From contig CBDBZU010000004.1 in assembly GCA_965213625.1 (NCBI GenBank), forward strand, positions 640,001 to 704,000: a DNA stretch of 64,000 nt, in the 5' to 3' direction. Source of the stretch: a bacterium. GTDB lineage: Bacteria; UBA8248. Below are positions 2,619 through 42,870 of the stretch, piece after piece (the first letter of the stretch is position 1; every line of letters starts with the position of its first letter). Made by a program: the position numbers and the translations under genes. A model generated the notes under the pieces. The model had not been told where the DNA came from. It saw nothing but the letters and a program-made list of their open reading frames with translations, and did no database searches.

Positions 2619-3275
2619 ATGGATTCGGACGCTGCTTTTTTCTCGGACGTCGAGACGGCGACGCTCGGCGACGCCGCCACGGCCCTGGGGCTTAATCTCA
2701 TCATGGAAGGCCCCCGGCCCAACGCGCCCGAGACTTATCCACGGTTCGCAGGACCCGCCGCCACCATGGTGTTCGCGCCGGTGCGGGACCCGGGAGCCAA
2801 GGCCCTGTTCAGCCTCTATGACGCGGTGGAAGAAGTGCCCGCGGGCTCGGTGGTCGTCGTCGATGCGGCGAGCTCTCCCCTGGCCGTTTGGGGCGGGGGC
2901 GCGAGCAGCGTCTGCAAAAGACGCGGCGCCGTCGGCTGCGTGATCGACGGGGCGACGCGCGATCTCGAAGCCCTCCGCGATCTCGATTTCCCCGTGTTCA
3001 GCAAATCGGTGTGGAGCCTCGCCTTCCCGAAGCGCCTGGAAGTCGTGGCGAAAGACTCATCCATAACCTGCTGCGGGGTGCGGGTGGAACCAGGCGACAT
3101 GGTCGTCGCGGATATCGACGGCGTGGCCGTCGTTCCGCAAAGTTCTCTGAAAAAGGTGAAACGGCAGGTCACCCGGATTCGGGATATCGAAAACGAGGTA
3201 AAAGGCCGCATCGCCCAGGGAGAATCGATGCGCGACCTCTTCCCCCGCCTCGCGCAGAAGTTCGACACCGATTGA
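2619..3275 (+). CDS. RraA family / HMG-CHA aldolase-like protein
   Basis: FAGPAAT, AVWGG, GCVIDGATRD, VEPGDMVVADIDGV motifs; AGGAGA RBS before ATG 2619. Confidence 0.85.
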   Translation: MDSDAAFFSDVETATLGDAATALGLNLIMEGPRPNAPETYPRFAGPAATMVFAPVRDPGAKALFSLYDAVEEVPAGSVVVVDAASSPLAVWGGGASSVCKRRGAVGCVIDGATRDLEALRDLDFPVFSKSVWSLAFPKRLEVVAKDSSITCCGVRVEPGDMVVADIDGVAVVPQSSLKKVKRQVTRIRDIENEVKGRIAQGESMRDLFPRLAQKFDTD

Positions 3276-36573: not shown

Positions 36574-37237
36574 TCTCACCGCCCCCCTGGGACACCCCGA
36601 CCTTTGCGAGGTGCCGACGTTTCCCCCGGTGGAATACTGGCAGTTTCACGAACATCCAACCCACGGCCGGCAGAACAGCGCGGTCAGAATGGCCATCCAC
36701 CAGGGAACGCACCTGGACGCGCCCAACCATTTCTATCCCGACGGCGTCACCATCGACGAGATGCCGCTCGATACCTTCTGCGGGCGCGCCGTGAAGATCG
36801 ACTTGAGGGGAAGCGCTCGCGAGGCGAGCCCCATCACTCAGGCTATGATCGAATCGAGCCCCGGCTTCAAGGCGGAACGCCTCGACGGGGCCATCGCCGT
36901 CACATGGACGGGCTGGTCGAAGGAGAAGATTTTTACGCCCGATTACTTCGGGCCCAACCCCTACCTGGACAAGGAGGCGTGCCGCTTCCTGTGCGATTGC
37001 GGCATGAAGGCCCTTTGCATGGACCACGCCATCGACCCCGGCATGCAGCCGGACTCCGTGGTGCACCACGAGGATTCCCCCGGCCACCGCGCCGTGCTGG
37101 GGCGGGGCGTTCCGCTCATCGAGCACGTCATCAACCTGGAAACTTTCGAGGAAACCGAATTCGAGATGTTCGCATTTCCGATGAAACTCTACAAAATCGA
37201 GGGCGCACCCGCTCGCGTGGTCGCGCGGCTCGACTGA
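36557..37237 (+). CDS. Cyclase family protein (kynurenine formamidase-like)
   Basis: IDLT, HQGTHLDAPNH, H.AVL..G..LIEH, FPMK...IEGAPAR motifs. Confidence 0.9.
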   Translation: MSRLIDLTAPLGHPDLCEVPTFPPVEYWQFHEHPTHGRQNSAVRMAIHQGTHLDAPNHFYPDGVTIDEMPLDTFCGRAVKIDLRGSAREASPITQAMIESSPGFKAERLDGAIAVTWTGWSKEKIFTPDYFGPNPYLDKEACRFLCDCGMKALCMDHAIDPGMQPDSVVHHEDSPGHRAVLGRGVPLIEHVINLETFEETEFEMFAFPMKLYKIEGAPARVVARLD

Positions 37238-37254
37238 AAGGGAGGAACCTAGAC

Positions 37255-37647
37255 TTGCCGTTTTACAGAATATCCGAGATGGAAACGAAGCACATCGACA
37301 TGGGCAAGGCCCAGACGCAGAGCGTCGCCGGAGAACTCATGAAGGCCGGCATGATCACCTATCCCGCAGACGGCGGCCCGCCGCCTCATTACCACCCGAA
37401 CGAGGAGCAGTTTCTCCTGGTGATGGCGGGCGAGGCGAACGTGATCCTGGGAGAGGAGACCCGCGTCGTCGTCCCTGGCGATCTGGTGCACATCCGCCGC
37501 AACGAGCGTCACGGTCTTCGCATCACCGAGGGGCCTTTTTCTTTCTTCACCGTGAAGAGCCCCGCAGGCGACGGCGACCTCTACCAGGACTACAACAAGG
37601 CCGAAGACGCCGATAAGGCGCGAGAGAAACTGGAATCCACTTTATAG
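37255..37647 (+). CDS. Cupin domain protein, copy 1
   Basis: TTG start after GGAGG; PPHYHPNEEQ and GDLVHI.RN..HG motifs. Confidence 0.85.
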   Translation: MPFYRISEMETKHIDMGKAQTQSVAGELMKAGMITYPADGGPPPHYHPNEEQFLLVMAGEANVILGEETRVVVPGDLVHIRRNERHGLRITEGPFSFFTVKSPAGDGDLYQDYNKAEDADKAREKLESTL

Positions 37648-37676
37648 GTTAACTTCTAAGACCAAGGAGAGATTGA

Positions 37677-38063
37677 ATGCCGTTTTATAGAATGGAAGAC
37701 CTTCCCCAGGGGTCCTCAAAAGTAGGCCCCGCCACCAGCCACGCGACCGCGGGCGAGTTGATGAAGGTGGGCTGGGTGATTTATCCCCAGGGCGACGGCC
37801 CGCCGCCTCACTTTCATCCCAACGAGGAACAGTACATCCTGATGCTCGAAGGGAAGATGAACATGATCTGCGGTGAGGAGGTGCGCGAAATCGGCGCAGG
37901 CGATCTGGTCCACATTCCGCGAAACACGCGCCACGGCATCCACATCACCGAAGGTCCGGCGAAATTCTTCGCGGTGAAAAGCCCGGCGGGCGACGGCACG
38001 CTGGATCAGGACTACAACAAGGCGTCCGATGCGGACGAGGTATACGAGCGTCTCAAGAACTAA
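37677..38063 (+). CDS. Cupin domain protein, copy 2 (tandem paralog)
   Basis: PPHFHPNEEQ, GDLVHIPRNTRHG, VKSPAGDG.L.QDYNKA shared with copy 1. Confidence 0.88.
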   Translation: MPFYRMEDLPQGSSKVGPATSHATAGELMKVGWVIYPQGDGPPPHFHPNEEQYILMLEGKMNMICGEEVREIGAGDLVHIPRNTRHGIHITEGPAKFFAVKSPAGDGTLDQDYNKASDADEVYERLKN

Positions 38064-38077
38064 CAAGCTGAACCACA

Positions 38078-38113
38078 AATGCCGGTGGGCCACCCCACCG
38101 GCATTTTGTTTTT
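38078..38113. terminator. Bidirectional terminator
   Basis: AAATGCCGGTGGG-loop-CCCACCGGCATTTTGTTTTT between convergent genes. Confidence 0.75.
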
Positions 38114-38638
38114 CTACTGTTGCGCTTGCGCCGCCATCCGCTTTTTTCTGAATTGCACGGCCTGGATGACGTCCTGCCAGACGAGACGCCCCAGGGGTCC
38201 CGAGCTGTAGAGCGAGATGTTTACCTTGCCGTCTGGTGAGAGCAAAAAGTTGGTGGCGTGAAGAAACGGCCTCGGCTTCTCGCCCGCCTCGGGTGAATAG
38301 AATGCACCCGTCACCTCGGATACATAAGCGGGGTCCACGCTGTGCCCGACCGGAAAGTTCACCTTGCTCGCCTCGATAGACTGCAGTGCTTCCTCTTCAG
38401 GGTCGGTGGACGCCGCCACGACCTTGATGCCCTCGGCTTCCAATCTTTCTCCCGCCCGGGAGAATCCCGCCATCTGGGCGAGTCAGTAGGGTCACCAATG
38501 GCTGCGGTAGAACAGGACGACGCCCCATGAGCCCAGCAGGTCATCGGGCAGGGAGATTTTTCCGCCGCCCACCTTGGCGATTTCGATACTCGGGAAATCA
38601 TCCCCGGTGTCGAGGAAGAACCGGTTCACTTTCGGCAT
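38114..38638 (-). CDS. AhpC/TSA (peroxiredoxin-like) selenoprotein with UxxU motif
   Basis: Continuous 174-aa frame reading ...GVVLFYRSHW-TGA-P-Y-TGA-LAQMAGF...VVAASTD; TGAs at 38492-38494 (codon 49) and 38483-38485 (codon 52) occupy both Cys positions of the FYRxxWCPYC motif; SECIS-like hairpins follow. Confidence 0.85.
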
Positions 38639-38741
38639 GATGCGCTCCAATCTGGTTCACGAATATGAATGCGACCATATCAAACGCCTGCGATGTTACA
38701 TCTCCTGCGCGGCCATGAAAACCGGCCTCCGGTTTTCGCGC

Positions 38742-38780
38742 AAAAAAACACCCCCTCGAAGTAAAGACCCGAGGGGGGTG
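38742..38780 (-). terminator. Terminator after upstream Prx-like gene
   Basis: Minus strand CACCCCCCTCG-loop-CGAGGGGGTG followed by a T-run. Confidence 0.65.
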
Positions 38781-38797
38781 CTCGAAAAAGATACGCT

Positions 38798-39295
38798 CTA
38801 GTTTTGTGCCATCATCTTCTTTTGGAACTGAACCAATCCCACTACATCCTGCCACACGAGCCGACCGATGGGGCCCGTGCTGTAGACGGCCACGGCGACC
38901 GTTCCATCGGGCTTTAAGACATAGCCCGTGCTGTGTATGATCTGGCGTTTTTCCTCATAGAAACAACCGGTGAGTTCGGATATCTGCTTGTTGTCCAGGC
39001 CATAGCCAACGGGGAAATTGATTCCGCATTCCTCAATCGTTCCCTTGGCGTTCTCCTCCGTGTCCACGGAAGCTGCAACAACCTTGACGCCCTCTTCTTT
39101 GAGCTTCGCCGCTCTGTCAAAGGCCGTAAGCTGCTGCTTGCAATACGGTCACCAGTGTCCGCGGTAGAGCAGAACCACTCCCCAATCGCCCGAGAGATCG
39201 CCGGGAAGAGAGATTTTGCCTCCCCCCACCTGGCCTACCTCGAGGCTCGGGAAGGGATCGCCCGAGTCGACCATCTTGTCCGTCATACGTGGCAT
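38798..39295 (-). CDS. AhpC/TSA (peroxiredoxin-like) selenoprotein with UxxC motif
   Basis: CAGGAGG RBS; continuous 165-aa frame ...GVVLLYRGHW-TGA-PYC-KQQL...; TGA at 39149-39151 (codon 49); hairpin CCGT..AAGC-AGCA-GCTT-ACGG immediately downstream; paralogous over full length to 38114-38638. Confidence 0.88.
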
Positions 39296-39528
39296 CAATG
39301 CGCCCTCCTGAAATGAATAAAACTTAAACAAGCCTGAATGAATAAGGCTCGAACACGACCACTTATACTCGTGCGATGGGGACATTTCAAACAGAACTGG
39401 GCCTTTCCCGAACCATCGCGCCGATGAAGCTTGCGTTTTCGTCTCGCAAGGTCTTGACACCGAGAGGCTTGGTTTCTAGCATAGGCCTACTTTTTCTGAA
39501 GGCTCGCACTGAGCGCAGGAGACCCTTG

Positions 39529-39807
39529 ATGAGCAACGTAATTTCTTGTGATTGCAAAACCATAAAATTGCAGGGCGAATACGAAAAGGCGGCCGACGCC
39601 TGCAACCGTGAGATTCATCTATCAGATGAGGACGCGGAGCGTTATCTTCCACGCGATGAATCCCAGGAAAATCTGGTCATCTCGAAAGAATGCCAGATTC
39701 CCCCTCTCACCAGTGTCATCCGCTACGGCGAGGGATATTACGTTCTCAAGAAAGGCCGGGTCATGCGGGAGGGCTTCAATAGAACGCTTCCCGAGTACAA
39801 GCAGTAA
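39529..39807 (+). CDS. Small hypothetical protein (92 aa)
   Basis: AGGAGA RBS, natural amino-acid composition, four Cys; no family recognised. Confidence 0.65.
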   Translation: MSNVISCDCKTIKLQGEYEKAADACNREIHLSDEDAERYLPRDESQENLVISKECQIPPLTSVIRYGEGYYVLKKGRVMREGFNRTLPEYKQ

Positions 39808-39871
39808 ATCCCCAGGCGGGTTTCGCCGCCTTCCAAAAACGAACCAACACTCGACCCCAAGGAGATGAACC

Positions 39872-40234
39872 ATGCGCGCCCAAAAATACAGTTGGGATGA
39901 GATGCCCGAGGAGGCCGTGACCGACACATTTTCGAGAAAGATGGTGGTGGGCGAAAAGGAGATGCTTTGCTGGCTCAAGCTCAAACCCGGCTGCGTGGTT
40001 CCCATGCACAGCCACGAGAACGAGCAGATTTCCCACGTCATCAAAGGTAGGCTCAAGTTTTTTGTCGACGATGAGACCGTGGAACTCGGACCTGGGGAAT
40101 CGCTTCTCATACCCCCGCACGTCCCCCACTCGGTAGAAGTCGTAGGCGACGAAACGGCAATTGACTACGACATCTTCAGTCCCATCCGCGAAGACTGGCT
40201 CGACGGGAGTGATAATTACTTAAGGGACGAATAA
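39872..40234 (+). CDS. Cupin domain protein
   Basis: PMHSHENEQ, IPPHVPH, DIFSPIREDW motifs. Confidence 0.9.
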   Translation: MRAQKYSWDEMPEEAVTDTFSRKMVVGEKEMLCWLKLKPGCVVPMHSHENEQISHVIKGRLKFFVDDETVELGPGESLLIPPHVPHSVEVVGDETAIDYDIFSPIREDWLDGSDNYLRDE

Positions 40235-40385
40235 CGGGGAAGTCCTCACCTAAATCTGTGGTAAAGCAAAAACATCTGGAGTGCGGCTCGTTTTGGGCGT
40301 CTTCAGATGCGTCCGTCAATCAATTCAATGGCTTCATCGACCGAACACGAGTTCATAGAAAGCCCGCAAAGAATATTCTTCTTTA

Positions 40386-40555
40386 TCCCAAGATATTGTA
40401 TCCACAACTCATCGACACACAATATATAGAATCTCCATAACTGATTGCTTTTAAAGCGTTAATTCGTTTATCCCCATCTGGATAACTTGTGGGTAAAACC
40501 GCCGTTCTGACCCCATATCTTGTGTAGCAGGAAAAAAATATACTATATTTTGTGC
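40386..40555. promoter_or_regulatory. Cluster of four NrdR-like boxes, four DnaA boxes and an IHF-like site
   Basis: NrdR-like 16-mers at 40386, 40417, 40510, 40540 (pairs 31 and 30 bp apart); one-mismatch DnaA boxes at 40398, 40468, 40477(-), 40488(-); IHF-like TAACTGATTGCTT at 40438-40450. Confidence 0.7.
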
Positions 40556-40563
40556 TAAATTTA

Positions 40564-40592
40564 TTGACAATCGGTAATAATCGCCCTACACT
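40564..40592 (+). promoter_or_regulatory. Sigma70-type promoter
   Basis: TTGACA-17 bp-TACACT. Confidence 0.7.
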
Positions 40593-40855
40593 GATAATTA
40601 AGGGTAGCAGAAATAGTCACTCCGCAACGAGTTCAGGTAGGCGCATCCGCCCCTCATCTTCGCTGGAAAAGTAATTTTTGCAGGCAAGTAGTTGACGTAG
40701 TTCGTGATGACGGGCGGCAGAGTCATCCCTCCGGGCATCGCCTGCCCTTTCCTTCCAGAGGATGCCCCTATCCCACCAAGGGGCCCCCTGCGGGGCCCCA
40801 AGATTCTGAAAGGCCCGAAAAAGCATCAGGCGCTTTTCAGAAACCACGCACCACG

Positions 40856-40884
40856 AAAAAAGCCCCCTCACAGGGAGGGGGCTC
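40856..40884 (-). terminator. Rho-independent terminator of hflKC
   Basis: Minus strand AGCCCCCTC-loop-GAGGGGGCT followed by a T-run. Confidence 0.75.
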
Positions 40885-40903
40885 TCCTGTTCCGGAACCG
40901 GGT

Positions 40904-41824
40904 TTATTCGGATTTTTCCTGGGTCTTTTTCGCGTTTCTGTTCTTCGATCCTTGCAGAAACCGGAGGAAGTCACTGCTCGCGGGCAGCACGAGGGTCGTC
41001 TTGTCCTTCAGAGAGCCCTCATACACCTCCAGGCTCTTCAAGAACGCGTAGAATTCCTCATCCTGACCGAACGCCTGCGCGTTGATGTCGATGCTCTTGG
41101 CGTCGCCCTCGCCCTTGGTGATTTGCTCTTTCTCATAGGCTTCCGCCAGGAGCACGTCGCGCTCACGGTTGGTTTCCGCCCGAATCTTCTGGGCCTGCTC
41201 TTTTCCTTCCGAGCGGTATTGGCGGGCGATTCTTTGGCGCTCGGCCTGCATGCGCCCGTAAATCGCTTTCAAGTTTTCCGTCGGCAAGTCTGCGCGCTTC
41301 AAGCGAACGTCCACTATCTCGATGCCGTATTCGCGCGCTTTCTCGTCGCTTGCTTTCGTGACCTTGGCCATCAGCTGCGCGCGATCCTTGGCTACGATGT
41401 CGATCAAATCCTTGCGGCCGAGTTCCTGGCGCAATTCACTGTAGATAATGTCGTCGAGCCGGGCTTGCGCCCCCGTTTCGTTGCGGACCGTGCGCAGGAA
41501 CTGGAGCGGGTCGACGATGCGCCATCGCGAGAAATTATCCACCACGAGGGATTTCTTGTCTTGCGTGATGATTTCCGTCGGGTTGGAATCGTACTCGAGC
41601 AGGCGACGGTCGAAAAACGTGAGCTGCTCCACGAACGGCAGCCGGTAGTTGAGGCCGGCTTCGCGCAAAACACGCACGGGCTTACCGAACCGGGTGACGA
41701 CCACCTGCCTGTCTTCGCGAACCGTGAATAACAGCGAGTTGACCCCAAAGACGATGATCAGGACCAGAACAAACAACGCGATTGTCTTTTTCGGCAATTT
41801 CACGCCCCCTCCCTCTGCGCTCAT
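40904..41824 (-). CDS. hflC: FtsH protease modulator HflC
   Basis: SPFH domain; T.DKK.LVVD...RWRI.DP, GIEIVDVRLKRADLP, RMQAER, FYAFLKSLE.Y. Confidence 0.95.
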   Translation of the reverse strand: MSAEGGGVKLPKKTIALFVLVLIIVFGVNSLLFTVREDRQVVVTRFGKPVRVLREAGLNYRLPFVEQLTFFDRRLLEYDSNPTEIITQDKKSLVVDNFSRWRIVDPLQFLRTVRNETGAQARLDDIIYSELRQELGRKDLIDIVAKDRAQLMAKVTKASDEKAREYGIEIVDVRLKRADLPTENLKAIYGRMQAERQRIARQYRSEGKEQAQKIRAETNRERDVLLAEAYEKEQITKGEGDAKSIDINAQAFGQDEEFYAFLKSLEVYEGSLKDKTTLVLPASSDFLRFLQGSKNRNAKKTQEKSE

Positions 41825-42870
41825 CGTTTCGTCACCCCTTCTATTCCACCACCCCGCAGCGGGAGTATCGGCAGCACGCCGGATTTGCCCTGATCCAGGA
41901 TCACCTTGTCCACCGTCGGCATCACCTCCTGCATCATTTCGAGATACAGGCGCTCGCGCGTAATGGCCGGCGCTTTTTTGTATTCCTTAAGCGTGGCGAG
42001 GAAGCGGTTCGCATCGCCTCGCGCATGGCGAATCTTGGTTTCGCGGTAGGCTTCCGCTTTTCTGAGAACGGCGGCCACCTTACCGCGCGTCTCCGGTATC
42101 ACCTGGTTTTGATAGCCCTGGGCCTCGTTCACGAGGCGGTTCCTGTCCTCACGGGCGCTGGCCACGTCCTTGAAGGCGTGGATGACTTCCTTGGGAGGCG
42201 TCACGTCCTGGAGCTGCACCGCCGCCACGCGCAAGCCGGTTTCGTAGAGATCCAGAATCTTCTGAATCTCCACCATTGTCTCTTGCTGGATCGCACCCTT
42301 TCCGGTGGTGAGCGCCTCGTCGATGGGCTTGCTGCCCACCACCTGCCGGATGGCGGCCTCGGCGGCGTGCACCACCGTCTCTCTGGGTCTGCGCACTTTG
42401 AAGAGATACTTGTCGGCCTCCACGATGCGGTACTGGACGATCATATCGACGTCCACCATGTTTTCATCCCCGGTCAGCATTCTCGATTCATGGGGCTTGT
42501 CCGAATATCTGGCGGGAGGTCCCGGATCGATCGTGCGGAAACCGATTTCAACGCGCTTCACTTCCGTCACCTTCGGCGTGTAGGCGGTCTCCATCGGGAA
42601 GGGCATATGATAGTTCAAACCCGAGGACACCACCCGATCGATGCGACCGAACCGGAGCACGATCCCCTGCTCATCCGGCCCCACGCTGAAAATGCCCGAA
42701 GCCAGCCAGATCAGGGCCACCACCACGAATATGGCAGCGGAGGGCAACTTGAAATTGGGTATTCGGAACTGCGGCAGCTTGATCTGAGGCGGGATGCCTC
42801 CTCCTCCACCGCCACCTCCACTACCACCGCCTTGTCTTCTCGATTTGAACTCATCCCAGTCCATTGGCAT
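41821..42870 (-). CDS. hflK: FtsH protease modulator HflK
   Basis: Gly-rich N-terminus, MLTGDEN.V, V.PPKEV..AF.DV.SARED, TRERLYLE. Confidence 0.95.
   Translation of the reverse strand: MPMDWDEFKSRRQGGGSGGGGGGGGIPPQIKLPQFRIPNFKLPSAAIFVVVALIWLASGIFSVGPDEQGIVLRFGRIDRVVSSGLNYHMPFPMETAYTPKVTEVKRVEIGFRTIDPGPPARYSDKPHESRMLTGDENMVDVDMIVQYRIVEADKYLFKVRRPRETVVHAAEAAIRQVVGSKPIDEALTTGKGAIQQETMVEIQKILDLYETGLRVAAVQLQDVTPPKEVIHAFKDVASAREDRNRLVNEAQGYQNQVIPETRGKVAAVLRKAEAYRETKIRHARGDANRFLATLKEYKKAPAITRERLYLEMMQEVMPTVDKVILDQGKSGVLPILPLRGGGIEGVTKR

What the first reader, a model, noticed from the sequence alone, without database searches (positions are those of the whole stretch)
40386..40592. Orphan NrdR/DnaA/IHF operator cluster with no ribonucleotide reductase gene
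Seen: four matches to the NrdR box acaCwAtATaTwGtgt (TCCCAAGATATTGTAT 40386, ACACAATATATAGAAT 40417, ACCCCATATCTTGTGT 40510, ATACTATATTTTGTGC 40540) form two pairs 31 and 30 bp apart. They are interleaved with one-mismatch DnaA boxes (40398, plus a tight trio at 40468, 40477, 40488) and an IHF-like site, and followed by a TTGACA-17-TACACT promoter. The flanking genes (cupin, hflC) both point toward the locus. Known: tandem NrdR boxes about 31 bp apart plus DnaA boxes mark nrd promoters, and DnaA plus IHF clusters mark oriC, datA and DARS2. Inferred: a dNTP-sensing control element coupling nucleotide pools to DnaA, such as an NrdR-gated origin, a datA/DARS-like site, or the promoter of an NrdR-controlled RNA.
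Basis: partly seen in the sequence, partly recalled or inferred. Interest (0 to 1): 0.8.

Follow-up and report, generated by a model that had tools for sequence, protein, structure and literature searches.

The report
NrdR/DnaA-gated promoter of unknown RNA
A gene-free gap in a Nitrospinota genome holds well-conserved binding sites for the dNTP sensor NrdR and the replication initiator DnaA, the same combination that this organism uses at its ribonucleotide reductase gene, and here they most likely control a conserved RNA of unknown type, not a replication origin.

Summary
All four NrdR boxes, four DnaA boxes and the TTGACA-17-TACACT promoter are at the stated places. In the 4.15-Mb genome only 18 sites match the NrdR consensus with 3 or fewer mismatches, and 3 of them lie here.

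- **Conservation:** the cluster is kept between cupin and hflC in 22 of 22 other genomes of the genus. No relative has an nrd gene there.
- **Same module elsewhere:** DnaA boxes plus NrdR boxes also precede nrdJ (the only RNR) and dcd. nrdR is present.
- **Not an origin:** in a complete relative the GC-skew minimum sits at dnaA, 186 kb from the locus.
- **Likely product:** about 200 nt downstream of the promoter are conserved, fold stably and hit no Rfam family. A model of this RNA finds it in 19 of 23 genus genomes. A candidate small ORF is frameshifted or runs on in several species.
- **Open point:** two species keep the boxes but lose the TTGACA promoter and the RNA, so a DNA-only role (DnaA or NrdR titration) is not excluded. 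Transcription is not shown.

The scan has noted orphan NrdR boxes on other DNA (phages, a Gemmatimonadota small protein), but not this locus.

The parts
40386..40401 (.). NrdR box 1 (TCCCAAGATATTGTAT), 4 mismatches to the consensus. It pairs with box 2 across a 15-bp spacer.
   Evidence: column identity 0.89 in 17 species
40398..40406 (+). DnaA box a (GTATCCACA), overlapping the right end of NrdR box 1.
   Evidence: column identity 0.98
40417..40432 (.). NrdR box 2 (ACACAATATATAGAAT), 2 mismatches.
   Evidence: column identity 0.87
40438..40450 (-). IHF-like site, one mismatch to WATCAANNNNTTR. It lies in the conserved stretch GTAACTGATTGCTTT.
   Evidence: column identity 0.90. The genome has 7 HU/IHF-family genes, none above the ihfA cut-off.
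40468..40476 (+). DnaA box I (TTATCCCCA). The same variant is conserved upstream of nrdJ.
   Evidence: column identity 0.82
40477..40496 (-). DnaA boxes II and III in tandem (TCTGGATAA-ct-TGTGGGTAA). This is the same two-box module and orientation as TGGGGATAA-gg-TGTGGGTAA upstream of nrdJ.
   Evidence: column identity 0.99 and 0.94
40510..40525 (.). NrdR box 3 (ACCCCATATCTTGTGT). Its right half holds a weak -35 (TTGTGT, 40520-40525) of the embedded promoter P'.
   Evidence: column identity 0.84
40540..40555 (.). NrdR box 4 (ATACTATATTTTGTGC), 14-bp spacer from box 3. It holds a -10-like TATATT (40544-40549) of P' and ends 8 nt before the -35 of P.
   Evidence: column identity 0.86. P' was read from the alignment and is an inference.
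40564..40592 (+). Sigma-70-type promoter P: TTGACA, 17 nt, TACACT. The start of transcription is inferred near 40599.
   Evidence: TTGACA-17-TACAYT is kept in the species that carry the RNA
40600..40803 (+). Conserved core of the putative non-coding RNA: 5' GGGUAGCA, a near-invariant block at 40726-40800, and a closing GGGGCCCC hairpin.
   Evidence: alignments A1 and A2; MFE z-score -3.34; 98% of cells paired and helix 3 varies yet stays paired; model R1 hits 19 of 23 genus genomes; no Rfam match
40804..40892 (+). Less conserved 3' stretch, running to the hairpin shared with hflC (stem 40862-40869 with 40875-40882). T-rich tails follow the hairpin on both strands, so it may end the plus-strand transcript as well.
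   Evidence: The minus-strand terminator was found by the scan; use on the plus strand is inferred from the conserved T-rich tails.

Best explanation
The 210-bp cluster is the operator region of a promoter under joint control of NrdR (the dATP/ATP sensor) and DnaA. The promoter drives a genus-specific, structured non-coding RNA of about 200-290 nt, read on the plus strand towards the end of hflC.

Shown:
- The sites are real, non-random and conserved.
- The same module of DnaA and NrdR boxes precedes nrdJ and dcd.
- A conserved sigma-70 promoter points into a conserved, stably folding, Rfam-negative sequence.

Inferred:
- NrdR and DnaA bind here.
- The RNA is made.
- It belongs to one regulon with nrdJ and dcd and so reports the dNTP and replication state.

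At nrdJ and dcd one NrdR box covers the promoter spacer or -10. Here both pairs lie upstream of the -35 of promoter P (about -44 to -89 and -167 to -213). Control is therefore more likely by looping of the two pairs across the IHF-like bend, by blocking the UP-element region, or by activation, than by plain occlusion. A weaker promoter P' embedded in boxes 3-4 could be occluded directly. The RNA most likely acts in trans. Its conserved C/U-rich loop CCCUUUCCUUCC would fit Shine-Dalgarno regions, which is a guess.
For: 1. Boxes are real and non-random.
2. The cluster is conserved at the same place in 22 of 22 other genus genomes, with boxes more conserved than spacers.
3. nrdR is present. The only RNR is nrdJ.
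4. The nrdJ upstream region has TTATCCACA, then TGGGGATAA-gg-TGTGGGTAA, then an NrdR box, then TTGACA, 18 nt, and TACATT inside a second NrdR box, with a third box about 32 bp on. It is conserved in 20 of 23 genus genomes.
5. The dcd upstream region has three DnaA boxes and two NrdR boxes 42 bp apart around its promoter, conserved in 23 of 23.
6. TTGACA-17-TACAYT is conserved.
7. The RNA region is conserved, including a 74-nt block that is near-invariant where flanking non-coding DNA diverges. It is single-copy and more stable than 200 of 200 shuffles.
8. 12 of 35 predicted pairs show G-U in some species, which would be C-A mismatches on the other strand. This favours the plus strand.
9. Model R1 finds the RNA once per genome, always at this locus, in 19 of 23 genus genomes.
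10. An AT-rich Nitrospinaceae genus (L041, L044, L045) has an NrdR-like pair 31 bp apart, then TTGACA 6 nt on, then a different RNA of about 170 nt with a long closing stem and U tail. It lies at the same place downstream of hflC.
Against: - No transcript is shown.
- G001 (L025) and G007 (L034) keep the boxes but have neither the TTGACA promoter nor the RNA, so the operator is under selection apart from this RNA.
- Covariation is thin: 2 pairs with changes on both sides, in 2 related sequences.
- No NrdR box overlaps promoter P, unlike at nrdJ and dcd.
- The spacer of pair 3-4 is 14 bp, one short of the canonical 15-16. In vitro 14 bp binds well for one of four tested NrdRs and about 2- to 17-fold worse for the other three (PMC12051234, Table 5).
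- A short ORF cannot be fully excluded.
- The RNA of the AT-rich genus is not detectably related to this one.
Confidence: 0.5

Rival explanations
1. The cluster is a DNA-only regulatory site. It would be a chromosomal DnaA-binding locus, in the manner of datA, DARS or the oriC-proximal DnaA-box clusters of Bacillus, or a sink for NrdR. It would act by binding these proteins, with transcription secondary.
For: - The operator is kept in 23 of 23 genus genomes, while the RNA and the TTGACA promoter are missing in G001 and G007 and only weak in G009 and G015.
- The DnaA boxes are the most conserved part, at 0.94-0.99.
- Boxes I and II are oppositely oriented and II and III are in tandem, as in the DARS core (PMC6868365, passages). 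An IHF-like site lies 27 bp away.
- The locus lies 155-305 kb from dnaA in 9 of 11 genomes.
Against: - The same DnaA II/III module, in the same orientation to a promoter, sits at nrdJ, where ordinary transcriptional control explains it.
- There are only 3-4 DnaA boxes.
- The I-II spacing is 0 bp, against the 5 bp given for DARS.
- This reading does not explain the near-invariant 74-nt block downstream in 19 genomes.
- Distance to dnaA is 719 kb and 1.37 Mb in 2 of 11 genomes.
Confidence: 0.22
2. The promoter drives a small protein gene: a proline-rich peptide of about 30-38 residues, MMTGGRVIPPGIACPFLPEDAPIPPRGPHGAP.., starting near 40707.
For: - A closed ORF of 30-38 aa with this core is present in 8 of 13 species.
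- By my reading of alignment A1, 7 of 11 variable columns of the conserved block fall in one codon phase.
- The scan found small proteins behind NrdR-boxed promoters in other phyla.
- A 73-aa ORF follows the second orphan NrdR pair of this same genome.
Against: - There is no Shine-Dalgarno sequence before the start.
- The frame is broken by a 2-nt insertion in L026 and L012.
- It runs on to 64 aa or more in the window, L018 and L022, because the hairpin loop has 4 nt instead of 3. L171 and L172 share that loop.
- It is deleted in L031, and shifted by 1 nt in L033 while the RNA hairpins stay.
- The phase bias is about P=0.1 after correction for three phases (my own binomial estimate).
- Third positions inside predicted stems never vary.
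Confidence: 0.1
3. The locus is a relic of an nrd promoter whose gene was lost (a deletion scar) and has no present function.
For: - The module resembles the nrdJ promoter.
- The -10 region of P (CTACA..) looks like the left half of an NrdR box.
Against: - The boxes are conserved above the spacers across the whole genus.
- No relative, in or outside the genus, has an RNR gene here.
- The downstream block is near-invariant.
Confidence: 0.05
4. The locus is the chromosomal replication origin, gated by NrdR.
For: The region is AT-rich with a DnaA-box cluster and an IHF-like site.
Against: - There is no GC-skew turn at the locus. The minimum is near 860 kb and the locus is at 680 kb.
- In complete G007 the skew minimum is at 360 kb, which is dnaA (361,958), with DnaA boxes in the dnaA-dnaN gap. 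The locus lies at 175,527 on the falling arm.
- The classic rnpA-rpmH/dnaA-dnaN region has 4 DnaA boxes upstream of dnaA and a perfect box after it.
Confidence: 0.02

Closest known systems
E. coli nrdAB control region (NrdR boxes plus DnaA 9-mers, with Fis and IciA)
   Same: NrdR boxes and DnaA boxes sit together upstream of a sigma-70 promoter. DnaA-ATP and NrdR jointly tune expression with replication (PMC2500167 passages; PMC12176259 passage). In this genome nrdJ and dcd follow this pattern.
   Different: No RNR gene follows. There are two NrdR pairs. All boxes lie upstream of the -35 of the strong promoter. The product appears to be an RNA.
Listeria monocytogenes nrdAB operator with two pairs of NrdR boxes
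   Same: Two NrdR pairs in one control region, with spacers of 15 and 16 bp (PMC12051234, section 2.5).
   Different: The Listeria pairs control an RNR operon. Here the spacers are 15 and 14 bp, the pairs lie 124 bp apart, and DnaA and IHF-like sites sit between them.
Pseudomonas aeruginosa topA, a non-RNR target of NrdR
   Same: An NrdR box at a gene that is not an RNR. There NrdR activates rather than represses (PMC4409342 abstract and passages). This gives a precedent for boxes that do not occlude a promoter.
   Different: topA has a single box and encodes a protein. Here there are four boxes in two canonical pairs and no protein gene.
E. coli DARS1/DARS2 and datA; Bacillus subtilis oriC-proximal DnaA-box clusters (the latter recalled, from no call)
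   Same: Intergenic DnaA-box clusters away from oriC. The DARS core has boxes I and II in opposite orientation and box III in tandem, and DARS2 and datA need IHF (PMC6868365; listing and abstracts).
   Different: The I-II spacing is 0 bp, not 5. NrdR boxes are unknown at those loci. The same DnaA module here also serves an ordinary promoter (nrdJ).
Cell-cycle-controlled regulatory RNAs such as Caulobacter CcnA (recalled, from no call)
   Same: The idea of an RNA whose promoter is read by replication or cell-cycle regulators.
   Different: Different regulators, no sequence or structural likeness tested, and no Rfam family matches this RNA.

Membership tests
NrdR operator (tandem NrdR boxes) | 16-bp partly palindromic boxes matching acaCwAtATaTwGtgt | tested here: met
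   Four boxes with 4, 2, 3 and 3 mismatches. 3 of the 18 genome sites with 3 or fewer mismatches lie here. They are as close to the consensus as the boxes at nrdJ.
NrdR operator (tandem NrdR boxes) | Two boxes separated by a 15-16 bp spacer (25-26 bp in some taxa) | tested here: met
   Pair 1-2 has a 15-bp spacer. Pair 3-4 has 14 bp, one short, and this is the same in the relatives. For 14 bp see Table 5 of PMC12051234.
NrdR operator (tandem NrdR boxes) | nrdR gene in the genome | tested here: met
   TIGR00244 at 186 bits against a cut-off of 124.65, at C4:3257832-3258296.
NrdR operator (tandem NrdR boxes) | Lies at the promoter of a ribonucleotide reductase operon | tested here: not met
   The flanks are cupin and hflC. 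The only RNR gene is 1.65 Mb away. No RNR stands at this place in relatives.
NrdR operator (tandem NrdR boxes) | NrdR loaded with ATP and dATP binds the DNA | not testable with these tools
   Needs EMSA or MST with the purified protein.
Chromosomal origin oriC | Coincides with the GC-skew minimum | tested here: not met
   own genome; G007: minimum at dnaA, locus 186 kb away.
Chromosomal origin oriC | DnaA-box cluster next to an AT-rich unwinding element | tested here: inconclusive
   A cluster of 4 boxes in an AT-rich gap. No unwinding element or DnaA-trio was identified. The dnaA region has an equal cluster.
DARS/datA-type DnaA-control locus | Three DnaA boxes with I and II opposed (5-bp gap) and III in tandem; IHF site | tested here: inconclusive
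   The orientation pattern is met (40468+, 40477-, 40488-), the spacing is not (0 bp), and the IHF-like site is weak.
DARS/datA-type DnaA-control locus | Promotes ADP release from DnaA or hydrolysis of DnaA-ATP | not testable with these tools
   A biochemical assay is needed.
Any Rfam RNA family | Covariance-model match | tested here: not met
   0 matches at E up to 1 over 39000-42000. Only terminator-level noise at E up to 10 over 40590-40900. 6S and SRP RNAs are found elsewhere in the genome.
Independent small-RNA gene | Own promoter, conserved sequence, stable fold, terminator | tested here: met
   Promoter; conservation; z-score -3.34; shared hairpin with T-rich tails on both strands.
Independent small-RNA gene | Transcript detected | tested here: inconclusive
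   No result either way. Only assembled contigs of 4 RNA runs could be laid, and these cannot show a start, an end or an absence.

The most novel reading that the evidence does not exclude
In this Nitrospinota genus NrdR is not RNR-specific. Together with DnaA it would run a small regulon for replication supply: nrdJ, dcd, a 73-aa protein, and this locus. The output of this locus would be a regulatory RNA switched by the dATP/ATP state.

Because its boxes sit where activators sit (-44 to -89), the RNA could be made when dNTPs are plentiful and feed back on dNTP synthesis or on initiation. Alternatively the same DNA could double as an NrdR-gated DnaA-titrating or DnaA-recharging site near the origin. 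Either would be a direct link between nucleotide pools and the initiator that has not been described.
Probability: 0.2. Interest if true: 0.8.

Novelty: new variant of a known kind. Interest (0 to 1): 0.55.

Why it matters
NrdR is treated as a repressor dedicated to ribonucleotide reductase genes, and targets outside them are very few (topA in Pseudomonas). Here a full operator with two NrdR pairs, interleaved with DnaA boxes, is kept across a whole genus with no protein gene to control. It points into a conserved RNA of no known family.

If the RNA is real, it would be the first regulatory RNA, as far as my two literature searches show, whose synthesis is tied to the dNTP sensor and the replication initiator. 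That would add a post-transcriptional arm to the control of DNA-precursor supply.

The finding also gives a clean computational picture of an NrdR plus DnaA regulon (nrdJ, dcd, this locus) in an uncultured nitrite-oxidiser lineage from sponges and sea water.

Tried and rejected
- **Origin of replication:** rejected on GC skew in this genome and in complete G007.
- **Deletion scar or misassembly:** rejected. Synteny is the same in all genus genomes, and there is no RNR domain in 23 neighbouring ORFs of 9 loci.
- **Known RNA families:** no Rfam match. The RNA is not 6S or SRP, which lie elsewhere.
- **Expression:** contigs of 4 RNA runs from 4 studies covered hflC/hflK but left 40235-40915 uncovered. 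Contigs cannot show absence, so this says nothing either way.
- **More relatives:** the one metagenome scan with a box pattern gave only 2 loci, both close to the window's clade.
- **Targets or second copies:** short-word BLAST of the RNA against the genome gave only chance-level matches of 15 nt or less.
- **Link to the RNA of the AT-rich genus:** model R1 does not match it. The shared 15-nt motif ACGGGCGGCnGAGTC may be chance.
- **Minus-strand promoter:** TTGTCA-17-TATAGT inside box 4 becomes TGTAGT in about half of the species, so it was not pursued.
- **Minus-strand ORFs:** those of 67 and 84 aa are not conserved.
- **The 164-aa ORF beside the second NrdR pair:** it looks spurious. A 73-aa ORF is the conserved one. 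It has no Pfam or Atlas relative.

Full report
**Where and what.** The window is C4:640001-704000 of a 4.15-Mb Nitrospinota assembly. Related records are titled Nitrospinota or Nitrospinaceae MAGs. The finding lies in a 669-bp gap (40235-40903) between a cupin gene (39872-40234, +) and an SPFH/HflC-like gene (40904-41824, -), which is followed by an HflK-like gene.

**Check of the observation.**
- All four NrdR-box matches are at the stated coordinates, with 4, 2, 3 and 3 mismatches to ACACWATATATWGTGT. They form pairs 31 and 30 bp apart.
- The window has 3 matches with 3 or fewer mismatches against 0.12 expected, and 0 of 100 shuffles reach 3.
- The whole genome has 18 such matches, 3 of them here.
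- The four one-mismatch DnaA boxes are confirmed. With 4 boxes in 400 bp the locus ties with the dnaA upstream region as the densest of the 7 clusters of 3 or more boxes in the genome.
- TTGACA (40564-40569), 17 nt, TACACT (40587-40592) is confirmed.
- The IHF-like site is two one-mismatch matches to WATCAANNNNTTR (40438-40450 and 40452-40464, minus strand). These are weak alone, since the window has 23 such matches, but the first lies in a conserved stretch.

**Conservation and synteny.**
- The gap matches DNA in 22 of 22 other genomes of the genus and in 0 of 18 genomes of 15 other genera sampled.
- In every case it lies just downstream of hflC with the cupin gene on the other side.
- Across 17 species the boxes have column identities of 0.82-0.99 (DnaA II 0.99, DnaA a 0.98) and the spacers 0.58-0.79. 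This is a classical footprint.
- No relative has an RNR gene at this place. Other genera carry an unknown gene of about 230 aa between cupin and hflC. None of the 23 neighbouring ORFs of 9 loci has an RNR domain.

**The same module at real dNTP genes.**
- The genome has nrdR (TIGR00244, 186 bits) and a single RNR, a 1196-aa B12-dependent NrdJ.
- Upstream of nrdJ, in its reading direction, lie TTATCCACA, TGGGGATAA-gg-TGTGGGTAA, an NrdR box, TTGACA, 18 nt, and TACATT inside a second NrdR box, with a third box about 32 bp on. This is conserved in 20 of 23 genus genomes. No match was found in G009, G015 and G018.
- Upstream of dcd (dCTP deaminase, TIGR02274) lie three DnaA boxes and two NrdR boxes 42 bp apart (26-bp spacer) around TTGACG. 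These are conserved in 23 of 23.
- Three of the seven DnaA-box clusters of the genome thus coincide with NrdR boxes: nrdJ, dcd and this locus.
- The tandem TnnGGATAA-NN-TGTGGGTAA element has the same orientation to the promoter at nrdJ and here.
- Spacers of 15-16 bp are canonical. Spacers of 25-26 bp occur in streptococci and are accepted by some NrdRs. A 14-bp spacer binds well for one of four tested proteins (PMC12051234, abstract, passages and section 2.5 with Table 5).
- DnaA boxes together with NrdR boxes are known from E. coli nrdAB (PMC2500167 passages; PMC12176259 passage).

**Not an origin.**
- In this genome the cumulative GC skew falls steadily through the locus (680 kb), turns near 860 kb and peaks at 2,885 kb. 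dnaA is at 985 kb in the classic rnpA-rpmH/dnaA-dnaN setting, with 4 DnaA boxes upstream and a perfect box just after it.
- In the complete 3.04-Mb relative G007 I fetched the first 400 kb. The skew minimum is at 360 kb, which is dnaA (361,958), with DnaA boxes in the dnaA-dnaN gap. The locus (175,527) lies on the falling arm.
- The locus is 155-305 kb from dnaA in 9 of 11 genomes, and 719 kb and 1.37 Mb away in the other two.

**What the promoter points into.**
- From about 40600 the plus strand is conserved. It starts with 5' GGGUAGCA, has a variable middle, then a 74-nt near-invariant block (40726-40800) that ends in a GGGGCCCC hairpin. A less conserved stretch follows, up to the hairpin shared with hflC, which has T-rich tails on both strands.
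- The 298-nt stretch folds at -116.2 kcal/mol, z = -3.34, and 0 of 200 shuffles fold as well.
- The consensus fold has 35 pairs with 98% of cells paired. Helix 3 varies at all 8 pairs and stays 95.8% paired. Only 2 pairs change on both sides, in 2 related sequences. 1 of 500 shuffles reaches the observed covariation score, a figure that relatedness inflates.
- 12 of 35 pairs show G-U in some species, which fits the plus strand only.
- Rfam gives nothing. 6S and SRP RNAs are elsewhere. The sequence is single-copy.
- A covariance model (R1) finds it once, at this locus, in 19 of 23 genus genomes and in 0 of 28 genomes of 14 other genera. With filters off it also gives weak syntenic matches in L030 and L032, and none in L025 or L034.

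**Coding or not.**
- A plus-strand ORF (MMTGGRVIPPGIACPFLPEDAPIPPRGPHGAP..) is closed at 30-38 aa in 8 of 13 species.
- It runs on in 3 species (window, L018, L022), because the hairpin loop has 4 nt instead of 3. L171 and L172 share that loop.
- It is frameshifted by a 2-nt insertion in L026, which L012 shares. It is deleted in L031, and shifted by 1 nt in L033 while the hairpins stay.
- There is no ribosome-binding site. I therefore favour a non-coding RNA, at roughly 5 to 1 within the 'transcribed product' readings.

**A parallel in another genus.** Three AT-rich Nitrospinaceae contigs (L041, L044, L045) have, at the same place downstream of hflC, an NrdR-like pair 31 bp apart, TTGACA 6 nt after the second box, and a different RNA of about 170 nt with a long closing stem and U tail. 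It has no Rfam match either. R1 does not match it, so homology of the RNAs is unproven. The arrangement is still the same.

**What does not fit.**
- G001 and G007 keep all the boxes but have lost the TTGACA promoter and the RNA, and their short downstream stretches are unlike each other. The operator is therefore selected for itself.
- One way out, by inference, is a weaker promoter P' embedded in boxes 3-4 (TTGTGT at 40520-40525, 18 nt, TATATT at 40544-40549). It is kept as TTGYGY-18-TAYATT in nearly all 18 species, including those two. It would be occluded directly by NrdR, as at nrdJ.
- The other way out is a DNA-only function. The box I/II/III orientation resembles the DARS core (PMC6868365 passages), though the spacing differs.
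- No transcript could be shown. RNA-run contigs covered hflC/hflK only, which proves nothing.

**Mechanism proposed.**
- When dATP is high, NrdR loaded with ATP and dATP binds the two pairs. These lie 124 bp, about 12 helical turns, apart, and the IHF-like bend between them would favour a loop. DnaA binds boxes a and I-III.
- At nrdJ and dcd a box covers the core promoter, so binding represses. Here the boxes lie at about -44 to -89 and -167 to -213 of P. The effect could therefore be repression by looping or UP-element blocking, or activation, for which topA of P. aeruginosa is a precedent (PMC4409342).
- The RNA then carries the dNTP and replication state to targets still unknown.
- Binding, transcription and direction of control are all inferred.

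**Prior notes and literature.**
- The scan had no note on this locus or on look-alike DNA.
- It had notes of orphan NrdR boxes elsewhere: in phages, at a Lachnospiraceae small-protein gene, and at a Gemmatimonadota small protein with NrdR and DnaA boxes. Those made me test the ORF reading.
- Two searches for NrdR together with small RNAs gave no paper describing an NrdR-controlled RNA. I judged this from listings and abstracts, plus passages of PMC3848588.
- A search for Nitrospina with small RNA or RNR gave nothing relevant.

**Verdict.** The origin reading is refuted. The best reading is an NrdR/DnaA-gated promoter of a new, genus-specific RNA (0.5), with a DNA-only DnaA/NrdR site as the main rival (0.22).

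Noticed in passing
G000:C4:3995413-3995459 (L099:3414-3460) and L099:3141-3362 (-): A second orphan NrdR pair (AGTCTATATATAGTAC and GCACTACATTTTGTGT, 31 bp apart) is conserved in 23 of 23 genus genomes. It lies about 50 nt upstream of a 73-aa ORF with a strong AAAGGAGG ribosome-binding site. The ORF is 73 aa in 5 of 5 full-length relatives and has no Pfam or Atlas relative. It is probably another non-RNR member of the NrdR regulon.
   Followed up: partly
L099:~2990-3140 (G000:C4:~3994990-3995140): Downstream of the 73-aa ORF on the minus strand lies a GC-rich stretch that is almost invariant among 5 species, more so than coding DNA nearby. It has no Rfam match. Then comes a csp gene (L099:2521-2802, -) with a cspA-thermoregulator-like leader below the Rfam cut-off (55.9 against 78 bits).
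   Followed up: no
G000:C4:2068726-2068741: A single good NrdR-like box (ACACAAAATATTGTGG, 2 mismatches) ends 7 nt before a TTGACA, upstream of a mutL-like ORF. This is the same 'box just upstream of -35' geometry as at the orphan locus.
   Followed up: no
G000:C4 860 kb against 985 kb: The GC-skew minimum (about 860 kb) lies 125 kb from dnaA (985 kb) in this MAG, whereas in complete G007 the two coincide. This suggests a rearrangement or an assembly problem near the origin of this genome.
   Followed up: no
L035, L036, L037, L042, L043 (other Nitrospinota and Tectomicrobia-labelled genera): A conserved gene of about 230-260 aa with no Pfam match sits between cupin and hflC, where this genus has the operator and RNA. 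Its N-terminus looks like a lipoprotein signal.
   Followed up: no
window 36604-40234: Three cupin-domain ORFs lie in a row (36604-37647, 37677-38063, 39872-40234), interspersed with two ORFs that have no Pfam match.
   Followed up: no
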